From assembly GCA_963795855.1 (NCBI GenBank), contig CAWCIZ010000001.1, positions 320,001 through 384,000 on the forward strand: a DNA stretch of 64,000 nt, read 5' to 3'. This stretch comes from Vulcanimicrobiota bacterium (GTDB lineage: Bacteria; Vulcanimicrobiota; Vulcanimicrobiia; Vulcanimicrobiales; Vulcanimicrobiaceae). This document shows, piece after piece, positions 18,157 to 62,086 of this stretch. Every line of letters begins with the position of its first letter. Within the stretch, counting starts at the first letter, position 1. The position numbers and the translations under genes are program-made. The notes under the pieces are model-generated. The model had not been told where the DNA came from. It worked only from the letters and a program-made list of their open reading frames with translations, and did no database searches.

Positions 18157-18981
18157 ATGAAATCGCGTTTTCGCCCGCGTGCTCGTGCTTCGTTCTCGCC
18201 ATGGCGCCGATCGCGGCGCCGCGCATCGCACGCCAGCTGCGCGTCGGCTCGGACATCTCGTACGCGCCGCTCGAATTCTACGCGGGCCATTCCAAGCAGG
18301 TTCAAGGCTTCGACTACGATCTGGCTCAGGCGCTCGTCCGCGCAGATCGGTGACGGCCTTCGATTTCAAAACCACGACTTCAACGACTTGATCAAGATCT
18401 CAACGGCGGCAAGTACGATCTCGTCATCTCCGCGATGTCGGACACGCGCGAGCGCTCGAAGACGGTGGATTTCGTCGACTATTTCTTGGCCGGCAGCGGC
18501 ATGCTGGTGCAGGCCGGCAATCCGCATCACATCTTCAATCTCGCGAGCCTGTGCGGCATGACCGTCGACTTGGAACGCGGCACGTCGCAGGAGACCGCGC
18601 GTCGCAGGCGCAGTCGCAAGAAGTGCGTCGCGCTGGGACTGCACCCGATCACGATGCAGGCGTATGCGACCGACGACGAAGCGCTCCGGCATTTCTTGGC
18701 CGGCGAATCGATGGCGCACATCTCCGACTATCCCGTCGTCGCGCATCTTGCGCGCACGCTCGGCGGCGGCAACAGCGTACATGGTTGGCGGACAGCAGTT
18801 CGGCGTGATTCCGTACGGCATCGCGGTTTCGAAGAAGAATCCGCAGCTGCGCGATCGCGTTCAGACGGCGCTCAAAGCCGTCATCGCAAACGGCACCTAC
18901 GATCGCCTGTTGCGCAAATGGGGCCTGCAGCAAGGCGCGATGCGCTCCGCGCCGGTGAACGCCGGAACGAAATTCGAATAG
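18157..18981 (+). CDS. polar amino acid ABC transporter substrate-binding protein, frameshifted
   Basis: VGSDISYAPLEF, GFDYDLA, MSDTRERSKTVDFVDY, YGIAVSK, NGTYDRLLRKWG. Confidence 0.85.
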
Positions 18982-48812: not shown

Positions 48813-49223
48813 ATGTCGCTCATGAAAATGCTGTACATCGGCGTCGCGCTCGCCGTTGCATTGACTGCATGCGGCGGCGGCAAGAGCCAATCGACGAACG
48901 CCAACACCTACGGCCGGACGACCACCAATAACTCCGCGAACGGTGGAAGCACGGCCGGCACATCGACTGCGGCGGTGCCCTCGAGTCTGCATTGCGGAGC
49001 GGTTTCTCCCGTGTGGGCCAACGAACGCACCCACGTCTACCACGTCGCGTCCGATCCGTATTACGGCCGCACCAAGCACGGCGCGTACATGTGCCCGCAG
49101 CAAGCGGCTCGAGAAGGGTATCACGCCGCCGGCGCGAGCGGCAGCGGCTCGATGCACGGCGGCCATCATCGCAAGCGCAACTCGATGCAGGCGCAGCCTT
49201 CGCCGTCGCCCGCTTCACCCTAA
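48813..49223 (+). CDS. lipoprotein
   Basis: lipobox LTAC; VWANERTHVYH...YYGRTKHGAYMC...A..EGYH small domain. Confidence 0.75.
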   Translation: MSLMKMLYIGVALAVALTACGGGKSQSTNANTYGRTTTNNSANGGSTAGTSTAAVPSSLHCGAVSPVWANERTHVYHVASDPYYGRTKHGAYMCPQQAAREGYHAAGASGSGSMHGGHHRKRNSMQAQPSPSPASP

Positions 49224-49227
49224 CGCG

Positions 49228-49959
49228 CTAAAGAATATCGAGGCGGCCGCCGTCCACGACGAGCGTCGTACCGTTGACGAACCGCGCTTCGTCCGAGGCG
49301 ACGAAGCAGATTGCGGCCGCCAAGTCCTCGGGTTTCCCGACTGCGCCTTCGATCTTTTCGGCGCCGCTCTTGACGTTCGGGTTGTTCCAGAGCATCGGCG
49401 TATCGACTGCGCCCGGCGCGACGGAGTTGATTCGAATCTTGCGCTGCTCCATTTCGATGCTGAAGCCGCGCGTGAAGGCTTCGATCGCTCCTTTGGATGC
49501 GGCGTACGGCACGACGTTCGCCGTCGTTTCGTGCGCGTGCACGGAGCTGATGTTGATGATGACGGAACCCGGCGGCATGTGCGGCACGCCGTACTTCGCG
49601 AAGAAGAACACCGACCCCAGATTCGTGTCGATGACGCGAAAAAACTCCGTTTCGGCGATGTCGACGATCGGCGTGAACGTCATCATGGCGGCGTCGTTGA
49701 CGATCACGTCGAGCGATCCGTAGGTCTGCACGGCCTTTGCTATCGACGCTTGCACCTGAGTGGAGTTTCCGACGTCGACCGCAACCGCAATCGCTTGGCC
49801 TTTTGCGGCGACTATTTCATCTACCGTCGTTTGCGCCGTTTCTTCGTGCAGATCGGCCACGACCACGCGTCCGCCTTCGGACGCCATGCGTAGGGCCGTC
49901 GCGCGCCCAATCCCGGAACCCGCCCCGGTGACGAGGCATGTTTTCTCGCTGAATCGCAT
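49228..49959 (-). CDS. SDR oxidoreductase
   Basis: TGAGSGIG, NISS, YAASK. Confidence 0.93.
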   Translation of the reverse strand: MRFSEKTCLVTGAGSGIGRATALRMASEGGRVVVADLHEETAQTTVDEIVAAKGQAIAVAVDVGNSTQVQASIAKAVQTYGSLDVIVNDAAMMTFTPIVDIAETEFFRVIDTNLGSVFFFAKYGVPHMPPGSVIINISSVHAHETTANVVPYAASKGAIEAFTRGFSIEMEQRKIRINSVAPGAVDTPMLWNNPNVKSGAEKIEGAVGKPEDLAAAICFVASDEARFVNGTTLVVDGGRLDIL

Positions 49960-49998
49960 GGAAAGCGGCTTCGGCTCGCCGCGTCGAAACCCCGCGCG

Positions 49999-52116
49999 AT
50001 GCAGCGTTCATTTCGTTTCGGCGTCGCAACCGCGGACCATCAGTGCGAAGCCTACAACGGACAAGACGACATTCGCGACGTGTGGGAACGCGTTCGGGGT
50101 CTGACGCAACGCGGCCGCGCCACCGACTTCTGGAACCGCTACCGCGAAGACGTCGACCTCGCCAAAGGTCTTGGATGCACCGCGTTTCGCCTTTCGCTTT
50201 CGTGGGCGCGCCTCGAACCGCAGGCCGGCGTGTGGGACGACGATGCGTTCGAGCATTACCGCGCCGTGCTGCAATACATGCGCGATTCAGGCATGATGAC
50301 GGTCGTGACGCTGCACCACAATACGTGGCCGCTGCACGTCCAGGCAGCCGGAAACGGCGCGGGGATGCTGGACGAGGAGTTCCCGCATCGCATGGAACTC
50401 TATGCCGAGCAGATCGCGCGGCGGCTGGGCGATCTCATCGATCACTACGTGACGATAAACGAGCCCAATCAACTCGTCTACGGGTTCATCAAAGGTTTTT
50501 GGATGCGCGCCTACCCGATGCCGCCGGGACTGCCGCCATTCGCCAGCTCCGAAGAGCAGATGGACGCCGTGCTTCGTTTGATTCCGAATCTGTTTCGTTC
50601 CCACGCACGCATGCGCGCGGCGATTCAGCGCCTGCGGCCCGGCGCGATGGTCGGAGCGAATCCGCTCATTCTCGGCTTGCCGCGCTGGCTGCAGCACATG
50701 ATCGATCGGAATGCCACACGCTTGAAAACTCCCGCGCATGCGCGCATGCAGGCGCGGCGTCTGGCGCAGCGCTCGCTGATCGATTCAGGCGCCGTCGACG
50801 TCTCGCTCGCGCAGCTCACGATGACGCACGAACGCATGCAGCACGTGCTGTTTTCCGAAGCGTATCTCGTCGCACATCCGGCCGTGCTGCACGATGCGTC
50901 GGTTGCGCTGCCCCAATCGTTCGATGCCTGGAGAGGCCGCGTCGGCGTTTTACGAGACGCGCCGATGGCGCAGCAGGCCGCGGGTTTTTTTCCGGATGCG
51001 GCGATCGCGTTCTATCCCGACGCCGGGCACGCGGTCGACGCGCTCGTTCGAGGCGAGTGCGACGTGATTTTCGACGACGACGTCATTCTGCGCCAGCACG
51101 CGAACGGAAAACTGACGTTGACGCCGATACCGGGCAACGAGCAGCCGTTTTGCGCGGCAATGGCGCTGGGCAGCCGCGCGCTGCTCAACGCGGTCGACCG
51201 CGCGCTGCGCGCGTTCAAACGGCAGCATCCGGATTTGCCCACAACGCACAACCGGAAAACCGTCGCCGACATCGGTGCGGCATCGGAACCGGCCGGCGCC
51301 GTGCCCGATCTCGACGACTCGCTGAAGAAGATCCGAAAGCGCGGCGTGCTGCGCGCAGGCATTTATCCCGGCGTCGAAGGGTTGTGCATGGCCGACGGCA
51401 AGGGCGGCTATAGGGGACTCGAACCGGATCTTGCCCGCGCAATCGCGCGCGAGGTGTTGGCAACGCCGGACGCGCGGGTCGAATTCGTTCCGCTTACGCG
51501 CGCCAAGCGCCTTACGGCAACACGCTCTCCGCTGCGCGCGTTCGACAACGTGCGAAAAGCATTTGCGATGTTCGGCACGCTCGTAGGCACGAACTGGTGG
51601 AATCTGGGGATGGCCGGGAAGCTGCCGCAGTTCCTTTGTCCGCCGGAATGCGCGGGAACGCTCGACTACGTCGGACTGGATTATTACTGGGGCGTTCCAT
51701 CGATTCGTCCGGGGCAGATCCAGCGGCTGCTGTCGGCGGCTGAATCGCGGTACGGCAACGCGCCGGTATGGCCGAACGAATTGGAGAGCATCCTCGAAGA
51801 AGCGCAAGAGCAATTTCCGGGCAAGCCGATCGTCGTCATCGAAAACGGCTGCGTCACCAGCGCGGACGGTTTCACGCGCGCGCAATATCTGGATGCGCAC
51901 GTCAAACAGGTGGATCGCGCACTCGAAAAGGGGCTGCCGATCGAAGCCTATCTGTGCTGGAGCATCACGTCAAACCGCGAGTGGGGCCTGCAGTTCGACG
52001 ACAACAGCGACTTCGGGCTCTATCACATCGACTTGGATCGCGATCCCGAGCTTCGGCGCGTGCCTACCGAAGCCAGCGCGCGCTACGCGGAAATCATCGC
52101 GGCTCACGACGGCTAG
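49999..52116 (+). CDS. GH1 glycoside hydrolase with inserted circularly permuted SBP family 3 domain
   Basis: FGVATADHQ, TINEP (acid/base), IENG (nucleophile), WSITSNREW; insert at about 50773-51530. Confidence 0.88.
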   Translation: MQRSFRFGVATADHQCEAYNGQDDIRDVWERVRGLTQRGRATDFWNRYREDVDLAKGLGCTAFRLSLSWARLEPQAGVWDDDAFEHYRAVLQYMRDSGMMTVVTLHHNTWPLHVQAAGNGAGMLDEEFPHRMELYAEQIARRLGDLIDHYVTINEPNQLVYGFIKGFWMRAYPMPPGLPPFASSEEQMDAVLRLIPNLFRSHARMRAAIQRLRPGAMVGANPLILGLPRWLQHMIDRNATRLKTPAHARMQARRLAQRSLIDSGAVDVSLAQLTMTHERMQHVLFSEAYLVAHPAVLHDASVALPQSFDAWRGRVGVLRDAPMAQQAAGFFPDAAIAFYPDAGHAVDALVRGECDVIFDDDVILRQHANGKLTLTPIPGNEQPFCAAMALGSRALLNAVDRALRAFKRQHPDLPTTHNRKTVADIGAASEPAGAVPDLDDSLKKIRKRGVLRAGIYPGVEGLCMADGKGGYRGLEPDLARAIAREVLATPDARVEFVPLTRAKRLTATRSPLRAFDNVRKAFAMFGTLVGTNWWNLGMAGKLPQFLCPPECAGTLDYVGLDYYWGVPSIRPGQIQRLLSAAESRYGNAPVWPNELESILEEAQEQFPGKPIVVIENGCVTSADGFTRAQYLDAHVKQVDRALEKGLPIEAYLCWSITSNREWGLQFDDNSDFGLYHIDLDRDPELRRVPTEASARYAEIIAAHDG

Positions 52117-53555
52117 TTGCCGTCGGGTTTCGCCATGCACGGCGCCATAACGGCGTCCGTCATGCCGTGGATCAGCCGTTTGTCCGCCGGCGCGACGGTC
52201 GCGAGAACTCCGCCGACGTGCACGGTTTCGCCGGTGACGAAATAGTACGGGCACAGCCGCACGCGCCCGTCGAACGTGCGAATTTCATCGTGCTCGGGAT
52301 CGTAGTATTCCTGGCGGACGCGCTTGCCTTTGTGGAACCGCTGTAGGATGCGCGGCGTTTTCTCGTACTCGCCCGTCGCTTCCCGAAGCGTCGCAATCCA
52401 TTCGTCTTTGGTGAGATCGTTCGCGACGCGAACGCCGCGCGACCCCCATGCGAGCTCGGAGAAGCCGGAAGGTTTGACGACGTAGTCGCGCTCGCTCTTG
52501 CCCAAATCGGCGAGCTGCATCCAATCGGACACCGGTGCTCCGCCCGCTTCGAGACCGCCGATCACGCCTTGCGGCGGAAGCGGACGCGGATCGATCACCC
52601 AAGTCTGCGGAAACAACTGCTGCAGCCGCGCGTAGATCGCTCTGCCATCCTTGCCGAGTTCGGATTCCCAAAGTTTTCGCAGCGCCGAGTGATGGAATAG
52701 CGCGAAGCTCAATTTCTCCTCGAGCTGTGCTTTCGGCGGCGGCGTCATCTCGACGCGTTTGTGGCGTGCCGCGTACAGCATCAATTCCTGTTTCGGAACG
52801 TTCAGCAGATCGAAAAGTTCGAAGTTGCGGTAGATCGCATCGATCTTTTCTTCGCGGCCGCCCTCGAAGCGGACGAAAAGCGCGTCTTCGGTGAAGACGA
52901 TGTCTTGCGGTTTGCACACGTACGCGCTCAGGACGTTCAGCTTGCGCAGCGACTCCGCAAGCCATTGCAGTTCGGGACGGTAGTCGCCGGATTCGTCCGA
53001 AACGACGATCGCGACGGCGGAACGTTTTTTACCGGTCGCCGCGTCGAGCATCGCTCCGAATTGTTTCGGAATCCCGTCGGCTCCGCCGACGCTCTCCATG
53101 CCCAAACGGCAATACGCTTGCGTCATCGCGCCGACGAAGCCCATGCCGCCGGGAACGCTGTCGAGTTCGCTCGCGATGAATCCGCCGTCGGTGAGAATCA
53201 AGTCGGGACGCATGATGCCCGGAAGTTCTTGCTTGAACCGGTTCTGCCGGGAGAGACGCACGATGTGCTCGGGTTTGCCCTGATCTAAATACTCCGCGAT
53301 GAACGCCGGGGCCGAGCCGCGCGCGCTGCGGTTGTACAGTGCGTTGAGCGCCCGGTAGAACGCGAGCAGGTCGTTGCCGACGCCGGTGATTTTTTGGATG
53401 GTCGCATCGGACAATGCAAACGGCTCGGGGCTGACGCGCCAGGGGATCCGTTCGTCCAGGTTCTCCACCTTGAAGAGACCGGGCGGGATCGCTTCGTAGA
53501 GGAAGCGCGCTTGCTCACGAGCCGTGAGGTTGGGGGCGAAAGCCGAACAGGCCAT
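52113..53555 (-). CDS. glutathionylspermidine-synthase-like ATP-grasp protein
   Basis: MRPDLIL...ELDSVPGG, IYRNFE, VVKPSG...WGSRGV, ILQRF, RVRLCPY; start uncertain. Confidence 0.65.
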   Translation of the reverse strand: MACSAFAPNLTAREQARFLYEAIPPGLFKVENLDERIPWRVSPEPFALSDATIQKITGVGNDLLAFYRALNALYNRSARGSAPAFIAEYLDQGKPEHIVRLSRQNRFKQELPGIMRPDLILTDGGFIASELDSVPGGMGFVGAMTQAYCRLGMESVGGADGIPKQFGAMLDAATGKKRSAVAIVVSDESGDYRPELQWLAESLRKLNVLSAYVCKPQDIVFTEDALFVRFEGGREEKIDAIYRNFELFDLLNVPKQELMLYAARHKRVEMTPPPKAQLEEKLSFALFHHSALRKLWESELGKDGRAIYARLQQLFPQTWVIDPRPLPPQGVIGGLEAGGAPVSDWMQLADLGKSERDYVVKPSGFSELAWGSRGVRVANDLTKDEWIATLREATGEYEKTPRILQRFHKGKRVRQEYYDPEHDEIRTFDGRVRLCPYYFVTGETVHVGGVLATVAPADKRLIHGMTDAVMAPCMAKPDGN

Positions 53556-53786
53556 TGAAAAGCTACAATCCTCCCAGTCGATAGCGACCATGGATGGCCG
53601 CACGCCGGGCGCGACGGGAAGTCGCACCGGCCGGCCAACCGTCGGGGATTTTTGACATGCCGAAGGCGATGTATCGGCGCCGCATCAGCCCCTAGAATAC
53701 CCCAAATGGCGTCGAAGTTGCAGCTTGCTCCGCCCGGCAATGCCCTACAAAAAAATGAGCCGTCCAGCCTAAGGTGAACCTAAAAT

Positions 53787-56599: not shown

Positions 56600-57284
56600 G
56601 AACAATCCGGTCGCGATACTCGAATACGAGCCGCGGCGTTCGCGCGGCGTTACGGTCGTCGCGGGCCACGGCTACTCGAGTTCCAAACACAATTTGGATT
56701 TTCTCTGCAATTTTTTAGCCGGCCACGGGTACGCGCTTTTCAGTCTGGATTTTCCCGGACACAAACTCGGCGCCGGCGGCGGAACGCTTCGCGGAATCGA
56801 GGACTTGACCGATGCGATGGGCGCGGCCGTCGCGTTCGCACGGTCGCATACCGATGGGCCGCTGTACGTCATGGGACACAGCATGGGCGCGATGACGGCG
56901 CTGTTCACGGCGGCCGCGGATTCCTCGATCGCCGGAACGATTGCGATTACGACCGGCTACGGCCGGCCGAGCGCCATAGACGCGTTGCGGGGAAAGGGCG
57001 TTACGGATTTTCGCTCGGCGTACGTCGACGGTGTCGCACTTCCGGAATTGGTCGAAGGCGTGGACGAACGTTTCGCGCAGGCGCTGCCGCGTTTGGCTGG
57101 GCGCCCGCAGCTGTACGTTGCCGCGCAGCGCGACGCGATGGTCAGCCGGCGCAGCGTCGAAGACCTCTATCACCGTGCGCCCGAACCGAAAACTTTCGTG
57201 CTCATCGACAGCGATCATACGTACGCCGGCGACAACGCGCGAGGCCAAGTGCTGCAATGGCTGAACGGCTTGCATCCCCGCTGA
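56568..57284 (+). CDS. alpha/beta hydrolase
   Basis: HGY, GHSMG nucleophile elbow, C-terminal Asp and His (SDH). Confidence 0.85.
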   Translation: MNVTLHRISAENNPVAILEYEPRRSRGVTVVAGHGYSSSKHNLDFLCNFLAGHGYALFSLDFPGHKLGAGGGTLRGIEDLTDAMGAAVAFARSHTDGPLYVMGHSMGAMTALFTAAADSSIAGTIAITTGYGRPSAIDALRGKGVTDFRSAYVDGVALPELVEGVDERFAQALPRLAGRPQLYVAAQRDAMVSRRSVEDLYHRAPEPKTFVLIDSDHTYAGDNARGQVLQWLNGLHPR

Positions 57285-58377
57285 TCGCGGGACTTCGACG
57301 GTACAGCAGGCACCTGCTCATTCCGGAAGTCGGCGTTGCGGGACAAGAGCGGCTCGCGTCCGCGCGGGTGCTCTGCATCGGCGCGGGCGGATTGGGCTCG
57401 CCGGTGCTGCAGTACTTGGCGGCCGCGGGAGTCGGGCGTATCGGCGTCATGGATGACGACGCCGTAGACGAAAGCAATCTCCAGCGCCAGACGATATTCG
57501 CAACCTCGGACGTCGGCAAGCCGAAAGCGCAAGTCGCCGCGCAGCGCGTGCGCGAGATCAACCCTTTGGTTGCCGCGGATCCCATTCAGCTCGATTCGAC
57601 GCGGCGAATGCGCGCGAACTCGTGCGGTTGTACGACGTCGTCGTCGACTGCACGGATCGTTTCGAAACGCGATATCTCGTCAATGACGCATGTGCGCTCG
57701 AAGATACGCCCGACGTCTATGGATCGATCTTCCGGTTCGACGGCCAAGTCAGCGTTTTCGCGCGCGGCCGCGGGCCATGTTACCGCTGTTTATTTCCGCA
57801 GGCGCCGCCCGCCGGCACGGTGCCGACGTGCGCCGAAGGCGGCGTTCTCGGCGTTTTGGCCGGCATCGTCGGCACCATGCAGGCGAATGAAGCGCTCAAA
57901 CTGGTGCTGGGTATCGGCGAACCGCTCATCGGGCGACTGCTGCTGGTCGACGCACTCGGCGCGCGAATGCGCGAGGTCACGATCGAGCGCGATCCGGCGT
58001 GTCCGCTCTGCGGAACGCAGGCGTCCATCACCAGCGTCGTAGCGGAGCCGGCGGAAGATGAACCTTCCGACGTGGATGAGATCGAGGCCGCACTGCTCGA
58101 CGACGTCTTGCGCGACGCGGTGCTTCTCGACGTGCGTGAACCGCACGAAGCCGCGCTCGGCACGGTGGAACGGTCGGTGCACATTCCCGCCTCGCAGCTT
58201 CCCGGGCGGCTGCACGAATTGAACTCCGCTAACCGGTACGTCGTCGCGTGCCGCGTCGGACAAAAATCGCTCTGGGCAGCCCGCTTGCTGCGCGACGCGG
58301 GATTCCGGCGTATCCTGCACCTGCGCGGCGGATTGCTGGCGTATGCCGCGCAGCACGATGAATTCGCGTTCTTTTGA
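57257..58377 (+). CDS. moeB: MoeB/MoeZ adenylyltransferase with rhodanese domain, frameshift near 57595
   Basis: RYSRH, GAGGLGSP, SNLQRQ, PCYRCL, CAEGGVLG, LLDVREPHE. Confidence 0.92.
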
Positions 58378-58378
58378 G

Positions 58379-59227
58379 ATGCAAACCAAACCGTTCGGAC
58401 CCGGTCGCGTGGAAGTCGCGACGATCGGCCAAGGCACGTGGGATATTCCGGAAAGCGGTGCTCGGCGCTCGGAGGCGATTGCTGCGCTGCGGCGCGGGAT
58501 CGCGCTCGGACTCACGCACATCGACACCGCGGAAATGTACGGCAGCGGCGGCGCCGAGGAGATCGTCGGCGAAGCCATTGCCGGCATTCCGCGCGAATCG
58601 CTGTTCGTTACGAGCAAGGTGCTGCCGAGCAACGCGAGCTACAAAGGTACGCTCGAGGCCTGCGAGCGCTCTCTGCGCCGCATCGGCACGGCGTATCTCG
58701 ATCTCTACTTGCTGCACTGGCCGGGTTCGCATCCGCTCGAGGAAACGATGCGGGCTTTGGAAACGCTCGTCGAACAAGGCAAGGCGCGCTTCATCGGCGT
58801 GAGCAATTTCGACGTCGACGACGTGCGCGAGGCCCAGTCGTACCTGCGCACCGTTCCGCTCGCGAGCGACCAGGTGCTGTATCATCTGCGCGAGCGCGGA
58901 CCCGAAGCGCAACTGGTGCCGTACTGCGCGCGCGAACGCATCGCGCTGGTCGGATATACGCCGTTCGGCCGCGGACGATTTCCGCGAACGCAAGCGCAGC
59001 CTGACGGCGTGCTCGGGCGCGTCGCTGCCGCATGCGGCAAGACGGTCCGGCAAGTCATTTTGAATTTCCTCACGCGCGAACCGCATGCGTTCGCGATACC
59101 GAAAGCTTCCCGCGTCGAACATGTGGAAGAGAATGCCGGCGCGAGCGGGTGGACGCTGAGCGCAGAGCAAGCCGCAGCGATCGACGCTGCATTTCCGGTG
59201 CATGCGGGACCGCTCGCAAGCCTCTGA
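58379..59227 (+). CDS. aldo/keto reductase
   Basis: IGQGTW, IDTAEMYG, LDLYLLHWP, IGVSNF, IPKAS. Confidence 0.94.
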   Translation: MQTKPFGPGRVEVATIGQGTWDIPESGARRSEAIAALRRGIALGLTHIDTAEMYGSGGAEEIVGEAIAGIPRESLFVTSKVLPSNASYKGTLEACERSLRRIGTAYLDLYLLHWPGSHPLEETMRALETLVEQGKARFIGVSNFDVDDVREAQSYLRTVPLASDQVLYHLRERGPEAQLVPYCARERIALVGYTPFGRGRFPRTQAQPDGVLGRVAAACGKTVRQVILNFLTREPHAFAIPKASRVEHVEENAGASGWTLSAEQAAAIDAAFPVHAGPLASL

Positions 59228-60382
59228 TCCGGAGGCGATAAAACGTCTGGCATGCCGAGCCGCGATCGAACTCGGAGCGGCGGACGTGCGCGTGGCACCG
59301 GCGCATACGGATGAAACGGCGCGCCAAGCGATGCGCGCCGCGTTCGCTCGCGGCGACTTCACGACCTGGCGCTACGACGACGACTACGCGCGAAAAGCGT
59401 CTGCTCCGGAACACGTACTCGTAGGCGCGCGCAGCGTCATCTGCATTGCGATGCCCTATCGCACCGGCGAACCCGATCGCGCGCCGCTTTCGGGCCGCGT
59501 TTCGAACTATGCGTGGTCGGCCGATTATCACCGGCGCGTGAAAGCACTGCTCGCGGAAGTTGCGCGCCGCATCGACGAGGCCGCCGGCGCGAACGTTACG
59601 GCGATCGCGTGCGACACTAAGCCCCTTGCGGAGCGCGCTTTCGCTGCGCGCGCGGGACTCGGATGGGTCGGCAAACATACGAATCTCATCAATCCTCGAG
59701 CGGGCTCGTTCGTATTCTTGGGTGAGATCGTCACCACGATCGCGCTTGCGCCCGATACGCCGCTCAAGAAGTCTTGCGGGAGCTGCTCGCGTTGCGTCTC
59801 CGCGTGCCCGACCGGGGCGCTGCGCGGCGATTACACGATCGACGCGACGCGGTGTATCGCCGACCTCACGCAGCGCACCGATGCAATTCCGCGCGAGATG
59901 CGCGGACTCGTGGGGACGTGGGTGTGGGGCTGCGATCTCTGCCAAATCGCGTGCCCGCCGAACGATCGGCGCATCGGTTCGCGCCGGCGAAAGCAACCGG
60001 CCGCTCTGGGCGGACGCCGCGACGCCCTCGCTGATAAGCCTGCTCCGCCTGCGCAGCGGCGACTTCAAAAGGACGTACGCGAAAACGGCAATGGGTTGGC
60101 GCGGTGCCGCGGTTTTGCGCCGTAACGCCGCCGTCGCATTAGGCAATACGCTCGATCGCAGCGCCGTTCCGGCGCTTGTTCGCACAATAACCGAGGATCC
60201 GCATGCGATGGTGCGCGGGCACGCGGCATGGGCGCTCGGCCGCATCGGCGCGCAACGCTGCGATCGAGCGCTTGCGCGCAGCTCTGCAAATGGAACCGGA
60301 CGAGAGCGTCCGCTCCGAGATAAGGGCGGCGCTCGATGACGCCGGAACCACGCACGACGCGTGCGCGTTACAGCGGGTATGA
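59202..60382 (+). CDS. queG: epoxyqueuosine reductase, two frameshifts
   Basis: VSNYAWSADYH, AGLGWVGKH, CGSCSRCVSACPTGA, GCDLCQIACP, RRNAAVALGN HEAT tail; start uncertain. Confidence 0.92.
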
Positions 60383-61065: not shown

Positions 61066-62086
61066 GTGATGGCCGCTCCAATCCTCGACCTGACGCGCGA
61101 ACTGCTCGCGGATCAGTTCAACCGGCCCGTTACGTACGTTCGCATCTCGGTCACGGACAAGTGCAATCTTCGCTGCGTGTACTGCATGCCGGAGCACGGC
61201 CTGCCCTGGCTGCCGAAGAGCGACATCCTTTCGTACGAGGAGATCGCCCAGCTCGGTACGGGCTTTCGCATCGGCGGGCGTGCGCAGCATCCGCTTATCC
61301 GGCGGTGAGCCGCTGATACGCAAGAATCTGGCCCGCCTCGTTGAGGAAATTTCCGCAATCGACGGTATCGACGACATTTCGCTCTCGACGAACGCGCTGC
61401 TGCTGGAAGAGCATGCCGACGCGCTGGCTGCGGCGGGATTGAGGCGCGTAAACGTTTCGCTGGACACGCTTCGCGAAGAGCGCTTTTTCGAAATCGCTCG
61501 GCGCCCCGGGCTCGACCGCGTCATCGCCGGAATCGATGCGGCGATCGCTCGCGGCCTCGAACCCGTCAAAATCAATTGCGTGGTCATGCGCGGCGTCAAC
61601 GACGATGAGATCGAAGCGTTCGCGCAGTGGACGCGCGAGCGCGCGGTCTACGTGCGCTTCATCGAACTGATGCCGGTTCAAGAGAATCTCGGCATCCAGC
61701 GCGACGCGTATATGAGCGCGGACGAAATACTCGAGCGCGTTGCACGCATCGGCGAATTGCAGCCGTCCGCCGGACCCGGAGGTAATGGTCCGGCGCGCTA
61801 TTTCGCGTTCGCGGGCAGCGCAGGCGCCGTCGGCGTCATCAGTCCGCTCTCGCACGATTACTGCGAGCGGTGCAACCGGGTGAGATTGACGGCGGACGGC
61901 CGGCTGCGGCTCTGCTTGTTCGGCGACCACGAAATCGATCTGCGAACGCCGCTGCGGGAAGGCGCCTCGAGTGAAGAGCTGGCGAGCATGCTGCACGCGG
62001 CAATGCTGATAAAACCCGAACGGCACCATCTCAGACTCGGCGAGGCGGCTTCGCGCATGCGCGCTTTCAGCGAAATCGGCGGCTGA
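61066..62086 (+). CDS. moaA: GTP 3',8-cyclase, frameshift near 61260
   Basis: [36 protein letters not shown], terminal IGG. Confidence 0.95.

What the first reader, a model, noticed from the sequence alone, without database searches (positions are those of the whole stretch)
49999..52116. GH1 glycosidase with a circularly permuted amino-acid-binding domain inserted in the barrel
Seen: one uninterrupted 705-aa ORF with both GH1 catalytic motifs (NEP at about 50458, ENG at 51841) separated by a roughly 250-aa insert. The insert shows SBP family 3 motifs in swapped order. The normally later part (SGAVDVSLAQLTMTHERMQHVLFSEAY...AVDALVRGECD...LLNAVDRAL) comes first, then a linker, then the normal N-terminus (SLKKIRKRGVLRAG...GLEPDLARAIA...VEFVPLTRAKRL). 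The two ends meet where they would be contiguous in a normal SBP. There is no signal peptide. Known: engineered allosteric switches are made by domain insertion combined with circular permutation. Inference: a natural ligand-gated cytoplasmic glycosidase.
Basis: partly seen in the sequence, partly recalled or inferred. Interest (0 to 1): 0.8.

Follow-up and report, generated by a model that had tools for sequence, protein, structure and literature searches.

The report
Glycosidase with welded-in permuted binding domain
This gene encodes a sugar-cleaving enzyme with a re-ordered amino-acid-binding domain spliced into its middle, a layout shared by many bacteria that resembles engineered protein switches, although in this lineage half of the binding clamp is eroding and switching is untested.

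Summary
The intact 705-aa ORF is a GH1 barrel, all catalytic residues kept, with a circularly permuted family-3 solute-binding domain (residues 259-510) between strands 5 and 6. Its two ends meet within 0-4 residues of native glutamate/aspartate binders. It is no assembly artefact: 240 of 240 listed homologues share the order, 102 of 301 genomes sampled from this phylum carry it, and so do cultured Nostoc. This scan noted the family before on other DNA; no paper was found. Ligand gating is untested and only partly supported. Relatives that include cyanobacteria keep a complete Asp/Glu pocket. In this lineage only the large-lobe pocket is conserved; small-lobe contacts are replaced, and that lobe or the whole insert was lost repeatedly. 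Modelling docks the large lobe and the permutation linker, not the small lobe, on active-site loops. Best reading: a cytoplasmic beta-glycosidase tuned by a weakened, retuned ligand site (about 0.45); main rival, a structural or vestigial insert (0.3). A divergent dehydrogenase gene occurs only alongside it (50 of 50). Lipid-degrading neighbours of distant members hint at glycolipid-type substrates.

The parts
49999..52116 (+). Whole gene: GH1 glycosidase with inserted circularly permuted SBP family 3 domain, 705 aa (P0001)
49999..50772 (+). GH1 barrel strands 1-5 plus two family-specific helices (residues 1-258); Q15, H107, N154 and acid/base E155 (50461-50463)
50773..51228 (+). Normally later part of the SBP (residues 259-410): large-lobe strand with Q272, T274, R279 (50833-50835), the small lobe, and the native C-terminal helix
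50878..51132 (+). Small lobe of the SBP (residues 294-378). D360 kept; P322 and A342 replace the Thr and Tyr of canonical relatives; deleted outright in several relatives
51229..51312 (+). Permutation linker joining the old C-terminus to the old N-terminus (residues 411-438); residues 416-428 are modelled as the main docking element on the barrel
51313..51528 (+). Normally N-terminal part of the SBP (residues 439-510) ending just after R504 (51508-51510), the equivalent of GlnH Arg147
51529..52116 (+). Return helix and GH1 barrel strands 6-8 (residues 511-705); Y563, nucleophile E615 (51841-51843), W654, E661, W662
49228..49959 (-). Divergent short-chain dehydrogenase (243 aa), 39 bp from the GH1 start; conserved partner gene in this phylum

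Best explanation
P0001 is a cytoplasmic retaining beta-glycosidase of a distinct GH1 subfamily. The subfamily's ancestor took up, once, a permuted Glu/Asp-type binding protein in the loop between barrel strands 5 and 6. The large lobe is held on the barrel by the permutation linker, and the segment carrying the ligand-binding R279 lies against the loop that follows the acid/base glutamate; the small lobe hangs free. Binding of a small amino acid or carboxylate would shift that segment and the helix after R504 and so tune the entrance of the active site: a modulator rather than an on/off gate. Relatives that include cyanobacteria keep a full two-lobe Asp/Glu clamp. In this lineage the site is reduced mainly to the large lobe and retuned (Thr to Gln at 272, Lys to His/Tyr at 456), which predicts weaker binding and perhaps another ligand. 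The substrate is most likely a beta-glycoside with a hydrophobic aglycone (glycolipid, steryl or terpenoid glycoside), and the neighbouring dehydrogenase would oxidise one of the products. Shown by sequence: architecture, permutation, conserved catalytic and pocket residues, losses, gene pairing. Modelled: folds and docking. Inferred only: catalytic activity, ligand binding, coupling, substrate.
For: Catalytic and subsite -1 residues Q15, H107, N154, E155, Y563, E615, W654, E661 are present in 73 of 73 family rows. GlnH's published Asp contacts R147, T162, S164, R169, W232, D250 (PMC6069109, passages) map to R504, Q272, T274, R279, A342, D360. In 72 L107-like relatives: R 71, T 50/N 17, T 72, R 72, Y 62/F 5, D 72; in 61 close relatives: R 61, Q 61, T 56, R 61. 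Pocket positions exceed background conservation: large lobe 0.89 vs 0.68 in close relatives, both lobes 0.93-0.95 vs 0.62-0.72 in the L107-like group. The insert model is closest to Peb1A, an Asp/Glu receptor (Z 13.8, rmsd 3.8 A, 161 aligned). Full-chain model pLDDT 87.5, pTM 0.89. Split into three chains, the insert re-docks: score 0.71, best of 3 controls 0.00 (mark reached by 116 of 157 solved and 2 of 215 mismatched pairs, counts only rough here), contacts agree at least 92%, partner pLDDT at least 84; interface is residues 416-439, 277-286, 390-397 on barrel 25-34, 112-120, 167-184, 582-584, 665. An isolated large lobe of T. maritima ArgBP still binds arginine at about 3 uM (PMC7589609, passages). 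The SDR is found in 50 of 301 genomes, all 50 among the 102 with the GH1. Lipid-type neighbours occur in 13 of 80 metagenome loci.
Against: No activity or binding was measured. In close relatives the small-lobe pocket is no more conserved than background (0.49 vs 0.55): position 322 is P 29, A 14, L 13 of 61 against T 71 of 72 in the other group, and D360 holds in only 45 of 61. The small lobe is missing in 5 of 120 top hits, with four different junctions seen; 2 of 8 such distinct proteins have also lost R279. Six full-length relatives lack the insert but keep the catalytic set. No small-lobe residue is named in the modelled interface, so the usual hinge closure has no evident lever on the barrel. 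The conservation test ignores kinship and burial, and three of its nine positions (456, 322, 384) were chosen from recalled SBP structures. The lipid-type neighbours are absent from all 80 genome loci of the close group, their queries were seeded from those same loci, and no background rate was measured.
Confidence: 0.45

Rival explanations
1. The insert is now structural or vestigial in this lineage. The large lobe and linker cover and shape the barrel's loops, or a permanently bound amino acid stabilises the fold, and activity does not respond to ligand levels.
For: Repeated deletion of the small lobe and of the whole insert with catalytic residues intact. Small-lobe pocket at background conservation. 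The strongest modelled contacts come from the linker, not the pocket. Micromolar sites such as GlnH (Kd 4.8 uM Asp) would be saturated at millimolar cytoplasmic glutamate (recalled concentration).
Against: R279 and Q272 are present in 120 of 120 and R504 in 119 of 120 close hits while the lobe around them drifts. The L107-like group keeps the complete two-lobe pocket. 115 of 120 close hits keep all four insert segments.
Confidence: 0.3
2. The SBP pocket is a second substrate site. It grips the amino-acid or carboxylate end of a glycosylated conjugate and raises its local concentration, like a carbohydrate-binding module.
For: The large lobe docks on loops at the active-site face, and R279's segment touches the loop after E155. 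Family-3 binders of sugar-amino acid conjugates exist (SocA, Z 13.4), and some family-3 folds are enzymes (cyclohexadienyl dehydratase hits).
Against: The L107-like pocket matches free Asp/Glu binders residue for residue, in which the ligand is buried. Neighbour genes point to lipid-like rather than amino-acid conjugates. The pocket-to-active-site distance could not be measured.
Confidence: 0.13
3. The ligand site is real but controls something other than catalytic rate, such as oligomer state, membrane attachment or a partner interaction.
For: Pocket conserved while the mobile lobe is not named in the barrel interface. A close solved GH1, Pyrococcus BGPh (1vff, second hit), is membrane-associated (PMC4687101, passages).
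Against: No oligomer or membrane model was run, and no partner beyond the SDR gene was found.
Confidence: 0.1
4. Assembly chimera or recent accidental fusion with no function.
For: The window's genome is a 6-contig assembly, 86% complete; its reads could not be inspected.
Against: The same order in 240 of 240 listed homologues, in 102 of 301 genomes, on multi-megabase contigs and in cultured cyanobacteria, down to 34% identity.
Confidence: 0.01

Closest known systems
GH1 beta-glycosidases (PF00232): BGL167 (4r27), Pyrococcus horikoshii BGPh (1vff), Cba3 (8znv)
   Same: TIM-barrel fold, NEP and ENG motifs, full subsite -1 set. BGPh is membrane-associated and prefers long alkyl glucosides.
   Different: A 250-aa SBP insert between strands 5 and 6; family signatures D13, R660, D671, S658 and a C-P-x-x-C stretch not seen in the 13 outgroup rows; far below every NCBIfam GH1 cut-off (best 158.5 vs 478.5 bits).
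Asp/Glu-type family 3 solute-binding proteins: Peb1A (2v25), E. faecium glutamate binder (5eyf), GlnH (6h1u), GltI
   Same: Fold and, in the L107-like group, every published GlnH-type contact or its usual equivalent.
   Different: Circularly permuted, no export signal, embedded in an enzyme. In P0001, T162 becomes Gln and W232 becomes Ala. The stand-alone relatives found are all in normal order.
Engineered PBP switches: MBP-beta-lactamase RG13, xylose binder-xylanase fusions, R-ncp-iGluSnFR1 (permuted GltI with a fluorescent protein)
   Same: Domain insertion combined with circular permutation of a binding protein or its partner (PMC6335823, passages).
   Different: Those are man-made and their switching is measured; most place the enzyme inside the binder, while here the binder sits inside the enzyme.
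Natural proteins with family-3 sensor modules: BvgS/EvgS kinases, GluR0 and other glutamate receptors, MltF, SBP-kinase fusions
   Same: Use of the same fold as a regulatory or accessory module (fold hits; SBP-kinase fusions noted in PMC6069109).
   Different: In those the module is extracytoplasmic or terminal and in native order (recalled); the review of SBP signalling searched has no occurrence of 'hydrolase', 'fused' or 'permut' (PMC8050422, term search only).

Membership tests
GH1 (PF00232) | Profile match above the curated cut-off and (beta/alpha)8 fold | tested here: met
   138.8 bits vs cut-off 22.6; Foldseek top hits all GH1, E about 1e-17
GH1 (PF00232) | Acid/base Glu in NEP after strand 4 and nucleophile Glu in ENG after strand 7 | tested here: met
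   E155 and E615, each 73 of 73 family rows
GH1 (PF00232) | Subsite -1 residues (Gln, His, Asn, Tyr, Trp, Glu, Trp) | tested here: met
   Q15, H107, N154, Y563, W654, E661 73 of 73; W662 70 of 73; residue set as listed for SGR_2426 in PMC12369401
GH1 (PF00232) | Retaining hydrolysis of a beta-glycoside | not testable with these tools
   needs an enzyme assay
Named GH1 equivalogs (BGL TIGR03356, BgaS, 6-phospho-beta-glycosidases) | Score above the NCBIfam cut-off | tested here: not met
   158.5 vs 478.5, 107.3 vs 475, 87.4 vs 610 bits; the insert splits the match and lowers scores
SBP family 3 (PF00497) | Profile match and two-lobed class II binding-protein fold | tested here: met
   41.7 bits vs cut-off 26.4; insert model pLDDT 86.6, pTM 0.84; Z 13.8 to Peb1A over 161 residues. 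The aligners covered only the first piece; re-joining of the last 70 residues is inferred from model confidence and sequence continuity
SBP family 3 (PF00497) | Native chain order and export signal, partner of an ABC transporter or membrane sensor | tested here: not met
   order swapped; no hydrophobic N-terminus; no conserved transporter neighbour seen
SBP family 3 (PF00497) | Alpha-amino and alpha-carboxylate contacts (Ser/Thr, Arg, Asp) | tested here: met
   T274, R279, D360 present in P0001
Asp/Glu-specific binders (GlnH, Peb1A type) | Side-chain contacts Arg147, Thr162, Trp/Tyr232 | tested here: not met
   P0001 keeps R504 but has Q272 and A342; the L107-like group does meet it (R 71, T 50, Y 62 of 72)
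Ligand-gated enzyme switch (domain insertion type) | Sensor domain in physical contact with catalytic-domain loops | tested here: inconclusive
   model supports docking of the large lobe and linker (0.71 vs best control 0.00); a model, and the mobile lobe is not named
Ligand-gated enzyme switch (domain insertion type) | Activity changes on ligand binding | not testable with these tools
   needs assays with and without ligand

The most novel reading that the evidence does not exclude
A widespread natural enzyme switch built the way protein engineers build them: a permuted glutamate/aspartate clamp welded into a glycosidase so that cellular amino-acid status sets the breakdown of glycolipids or other hydrophobic glycosides. 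The family would also supply a natural series (full clamp, retuned clamp, one-lobe, no insert) showing how such allostery is gained, tuned and lost.
Probability: 0.35. Interest if true: 0.88.

Novelty: new variant of a known kind. Interest (0 to 1): 0.7.

Why it matters
Domain insertion plus circular permutation is the standard laboratory route to allosteric switches, and no natural SBP-in-enzyme case turned up in the ten literature searches run. If the ligand site tunes catalysis, this links amino-acid (nitrogen) status directly to glycoside breakdown in soil bacteria and cyanobacteria, and gives engineers an evolved insertion point and docking linker. It is testable now: members exist in cultured Nostoc, and natural variants without the small lobe or the whole insert are ready-made controls. 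Even without gating it defines an uncharacterised GH1 subfamily with a probable new substrate class.

Tried and rejected
Sequencing runs: none was listed for 49100-52300, so reads and expression were not examined; this is no evidence either way. Plasmids: no match to the Nostoc homologue at E 1e-60. Promoter and terminator scan of 49700-50300: nothing. A stand-alone permuted SBP as donor: not found among 37 shorter hits; those in permuted order carry GH1 pieces or are short fragments, and the whole SBPs are in native order. Two tandem partial SBPs instead of one permuted domain: rejected because the pieces are complementary, the insert alone models compactly, and sequential alignment to tandem BvgS or GlnPQ domains gives rmsd 19-20 A. 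The convergent ATP-grasp-like neighbour (52113-53627) as partner: only 5 of 80 loci. The GH31 neighbour as a true sulfoquinovosidase: not accepted, since a conserved Arg is Gln. Surveying cyanobacterial genomes for gene context was not possible. Literature: ten full-text searches, of which 32, 51, 78, 105 and 109 targeted the architecture; none listed a paper on it. The library lacks most subscription journals and no supplements were read, so a mention in a table could have been missed.

Full report
Observation. Window 49999-52116 (+) is one open frame of 705 aa, with NEP at 50458 and ENG at 51841. Pfam GH1 matches in two stretches. SBP_bac_3 matches residues 260-408 to profile positions 53-118, and the piece at about 451-509 to positions 1-55. 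The order is therefore swapped. Against solved chains the piece ending near residue 508 stops at GlnH position 110 and the piece starting at 263 begins at 112. For the more canonical homologue in L107 the two ends overlap by 2-4 residues in 5eyf, Peb1A and GlnH. The break lies in the helix just after the arginine that binds the ligand's side chain. The short overlap would fit an origin by duplication and trimming; that is inference.

Structure. AlphaFold2 on the 120-row alignment gives pLDDT 87.5 and pTM 0.89 for the whole chain, and all top Foldseek hits are GH1. The insert leaves after strand 5 and two helices and returns by a helix before strand 6. Folded alone it gives pLDDT 86.6 and pTM 0.84, and its best match is Peb1A (Z 13.8, rmsd 3.8 A, 161 residues), tied within 1 Z with other family-3 binders. 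The aligners are sequential and cover only the first 160 or so residues. I could not view coordinates, so the re-joining of the last 70 residues into the large lobe rests on model confidence, sequence continuity, and the poor fit to tandem domains (rmsd 19-20 A). With the protein cut into three chains, the insert re-docked on the barrel: score 0.71, best of 3 controls 0.00 (mark reached by 116 of 157 solved and 2 of 215 mismatched pairs, rough here), contacts agreeing at least 92%, partner pLDDT at least 84. The named interface is the permutation linker (416-439) and large-lobe residues 277-286, 380 and 390-397 against barrel residues 25-34, 112-120, 167-184, 256-257, 513-516, 582-584 and 665. 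No small-lobe residue is named; the tool warns that this does not prove lack of contact. No like complex is solved as far as my searches show, but these are pieces of one natural chain, so a pass is less surprising than for separate proteins.

Distribution. All 120 listed hits of P0001 (of 829) and all 120 listed hits of the L107 protein (of 939) have the swapped order, 240 of 240. The representative search reaches full-length members at 34-57% identity. In a sample of this phylum 102 of 301 genomes and 21 of 100 genera match. Record titles of close loci are mostly Vulcanimicrobiota/Eremiobacterota. Named distant carriers include Verrucomicrobiota, Chloroflexota and cultured cyanobacteria such as Nostoc sp. 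PCC 7524 and Halotia branconii on contigs of 6.6-6.9 Mb. A chimeric assembly is excluded for the family; this locus's own reads were not available. Databases already carry the two-domain label, without the insertion or permutation. Three earlier notes of this scan describe the same family in other genomes.

Catalytic part. Q15, H107, N154, E155, Y563, E615, W654 and E661 are present in 73 of 73 family rows, including those without the insert. The family has its own signatures against 13 outgroup GH1 rows: D13, S658 for Asp, R660, D671 for Arg, and two cysteines at 547 and 551. Glu at 661 argues against a 6-phospho-glycosidase (recalled knowledge). Activity is inferred.

Binding pocket. GlnH binds Asp through S164, R169, D250 (amine and carboxyl) and R147, T162, W232 (side chain) (PMC6069109, passages). 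These map to T274, R279, D360, R504, Q272 and A342. In 72 L107-like rows the pocket is canonical: R504 71, T/N272 67, T274 72, R279 72, Y/F342 67, D360 72, and T322 71. In 61 close rows the large-lobe side is held (R504 61, Q272 61, T274 56, R279 61) but the small-lobe side is not (322 mostly P/A/L, 342 variable, D360 45). Pocket versus background conservation is 0.89 vs 0.68 (large lobe) and 0.49 vs 0.55 (small lobe) in close rows, and 0.93 vs 0.72 and 0.95 vs 0.62 in the L107-like rows; random position sets reached these values in 2%, 64%, 0.3% and 0.3% of draws. This ignores kinship and burial, and positions 456, 322 and 384 come from recalled structures.

Gain and loss. A quick LG+G4 tree of 86 rows on 407 barrel columns, insert dropped, separates the 73 family rows from 13 other GH1 (SH-aLRT 99). 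Rows without the insert are scattered: P0141 (degenerate remnant) groups with full-insert P0136 and L138 (100), P0154 with P0137 and P0138 (93, long branch), P0139 and P0142 are unresolved, and P0148, P0153 and P0163 group with full-insert P0146 at the base (96). P0139 still carries what looks like the insert's last strand and arginine. One gain and several losses is the simplest reading, but I ran no clade test, and the basal three could be primitively insert-free. The small lobe alone is excised in 5 of 120 close hits and in further genomes, with four different junctions. Six of 8 distinct such proteins keep R279. An isolated large lobe of T. maritima ArgBP binds arginine at about 3 uM (PMC7589609, passages), so one-lobe forms may still bind, but two have lost the arginine, which shows decay also happens.

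Gene context. A divergent SDR starts within 100 bp in 43 of 80 genome loci. In the 301-genome sample it is found in 50 genomes, all among the 102 with the GH1, and within 150 bp of it in 45 (kin are not independent). It fits no named SDR family above cut-off among the 25 shown. Other flanking genes vary. Among 80 metagenome loci ranked by a distant member, 13 (10 of the 53 with at least 3 kb of flank) hold a cholesterol-oxidase-like GMC enzyme, patatin, alpha/beta hydrolase, acetoacetate decarboxylase-like or GH31 gene; none of the 80 close genome loci does. The GH1s of nine of these loci compared are 41-75% identical to each other, so more than one clade is involved. The GMC enzymes' best solved hits are cholesterol oxidases but score well below the family cut-off. 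The GH31 passes the YihQ cut-off (707.7 vs 553 bits) and is closest to sulfoquinovosidases, which act on glycolipid head groups (PMC13436972, passages). The second-best solved GH1 hit, BGPh, is membrane-associated and prefers long alkyl glucosides. Together these point, moderately and indirectly, to a hydrophobic aglycone. Queries were seeded from these loci and no background was measured.

Verdict. The architecture is real, old, widespread and not found in the literature searched. It is a GH1 member by fold and catalytic residues; its insert is a family-3 fold but not a transport protein. It works most plausibly like an inserted sensor that modulates the enzyme (0.45). That case is stronger for relatives with the complete pocket than for this protein, whose small-lobe contacts are eroded. 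A structural or vestigial role (0.3), a second substrate site (0.13) and control of assembly or location (0.1) remain open. Interest 0.7; novelty: new variant of a known kind.

Noticed in passing
window 52113-53627 (-): 504-aa protein with no Pfam or NCBIfam hit; Atlas look-alikes are circularly permuted type 2 ATP-grasp and glutathione-synthetase-like clusters (0.95-0.99). Overlaps the GH1 stop by 4 bp, convergent; beside the GH1 in only 5 of 80 loci.
   Followed up: partly
L090:3532-5916, L094:6850-9216, L099: YihQ-like GH31 genes next to family members whose closest named relatives are cyanobacterial. They pass the YihQ cut-off but have Gln where solved sulfoquinovosidases have a conserved Arg. 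A 2026 review reports no credible sulfoquinovosidase in cyanobacteria, so these may be a related glycolipid alpha-glycosidase. Host taxa of the loci are not known.
   Followed up: partly
L083, L092, L093, L094, L096, L107, L138: A recurring cluster of cholesterol-oxidase-like GMC enzyme, patatin, alpha/beta hydrolase and acetoacetate decarboxylase-like genes, sometimes fused (L107, 1150 aa). One literature search found no paper on it.
   Followed up: partly
window 51637-51651 (residues 547-551) and residues 16, 618, 653: A C-P-x-x-C stretch is kept in 71-72 of 73 family rows and absent from outgroup GH1s; other cysteines sit next to active-site motifs. Possible disulfide, metal or redox site.
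   Followed up: no
window 51970-52011 (residues 658-671): The usual GH1 Asp and Arg at these two positions are replaced by Ser and Asp, with a new invariant Arg at 660: an apparent charge swap specific to the family.
   Followed up: no
window 49960-49998: Only 39 bp separate the divergent SDR and GH1 starts (40-98 bp in relatives), so promoters must overlap the genes; no sigma-70-like site was found.
   Followed up: partly
G047, G049, G146, G173, G174, G191 and others: Several genomes show the gene split or with internal stops; these may be long-read frameshift errors or pseudogenes. A few genomes (G125, G182) hold two full copies.
   Followed up: no
window about 18237-18924 (+) (G000:C1:338237-338924): The genome's only other SBP_bac_3 match lies in this same window, in two pieces with a TGA inside the first.
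   Followed up: no
window 57257-58377, 59202-60339, 61066-62086: The MoeB-like, QueG-like and MoaA-like genes each appear as two overlapping frames (names from motif recall), suggesting frameshift errors in the assembly; the GH1 gene itself is unaffected.
   Followed up: no
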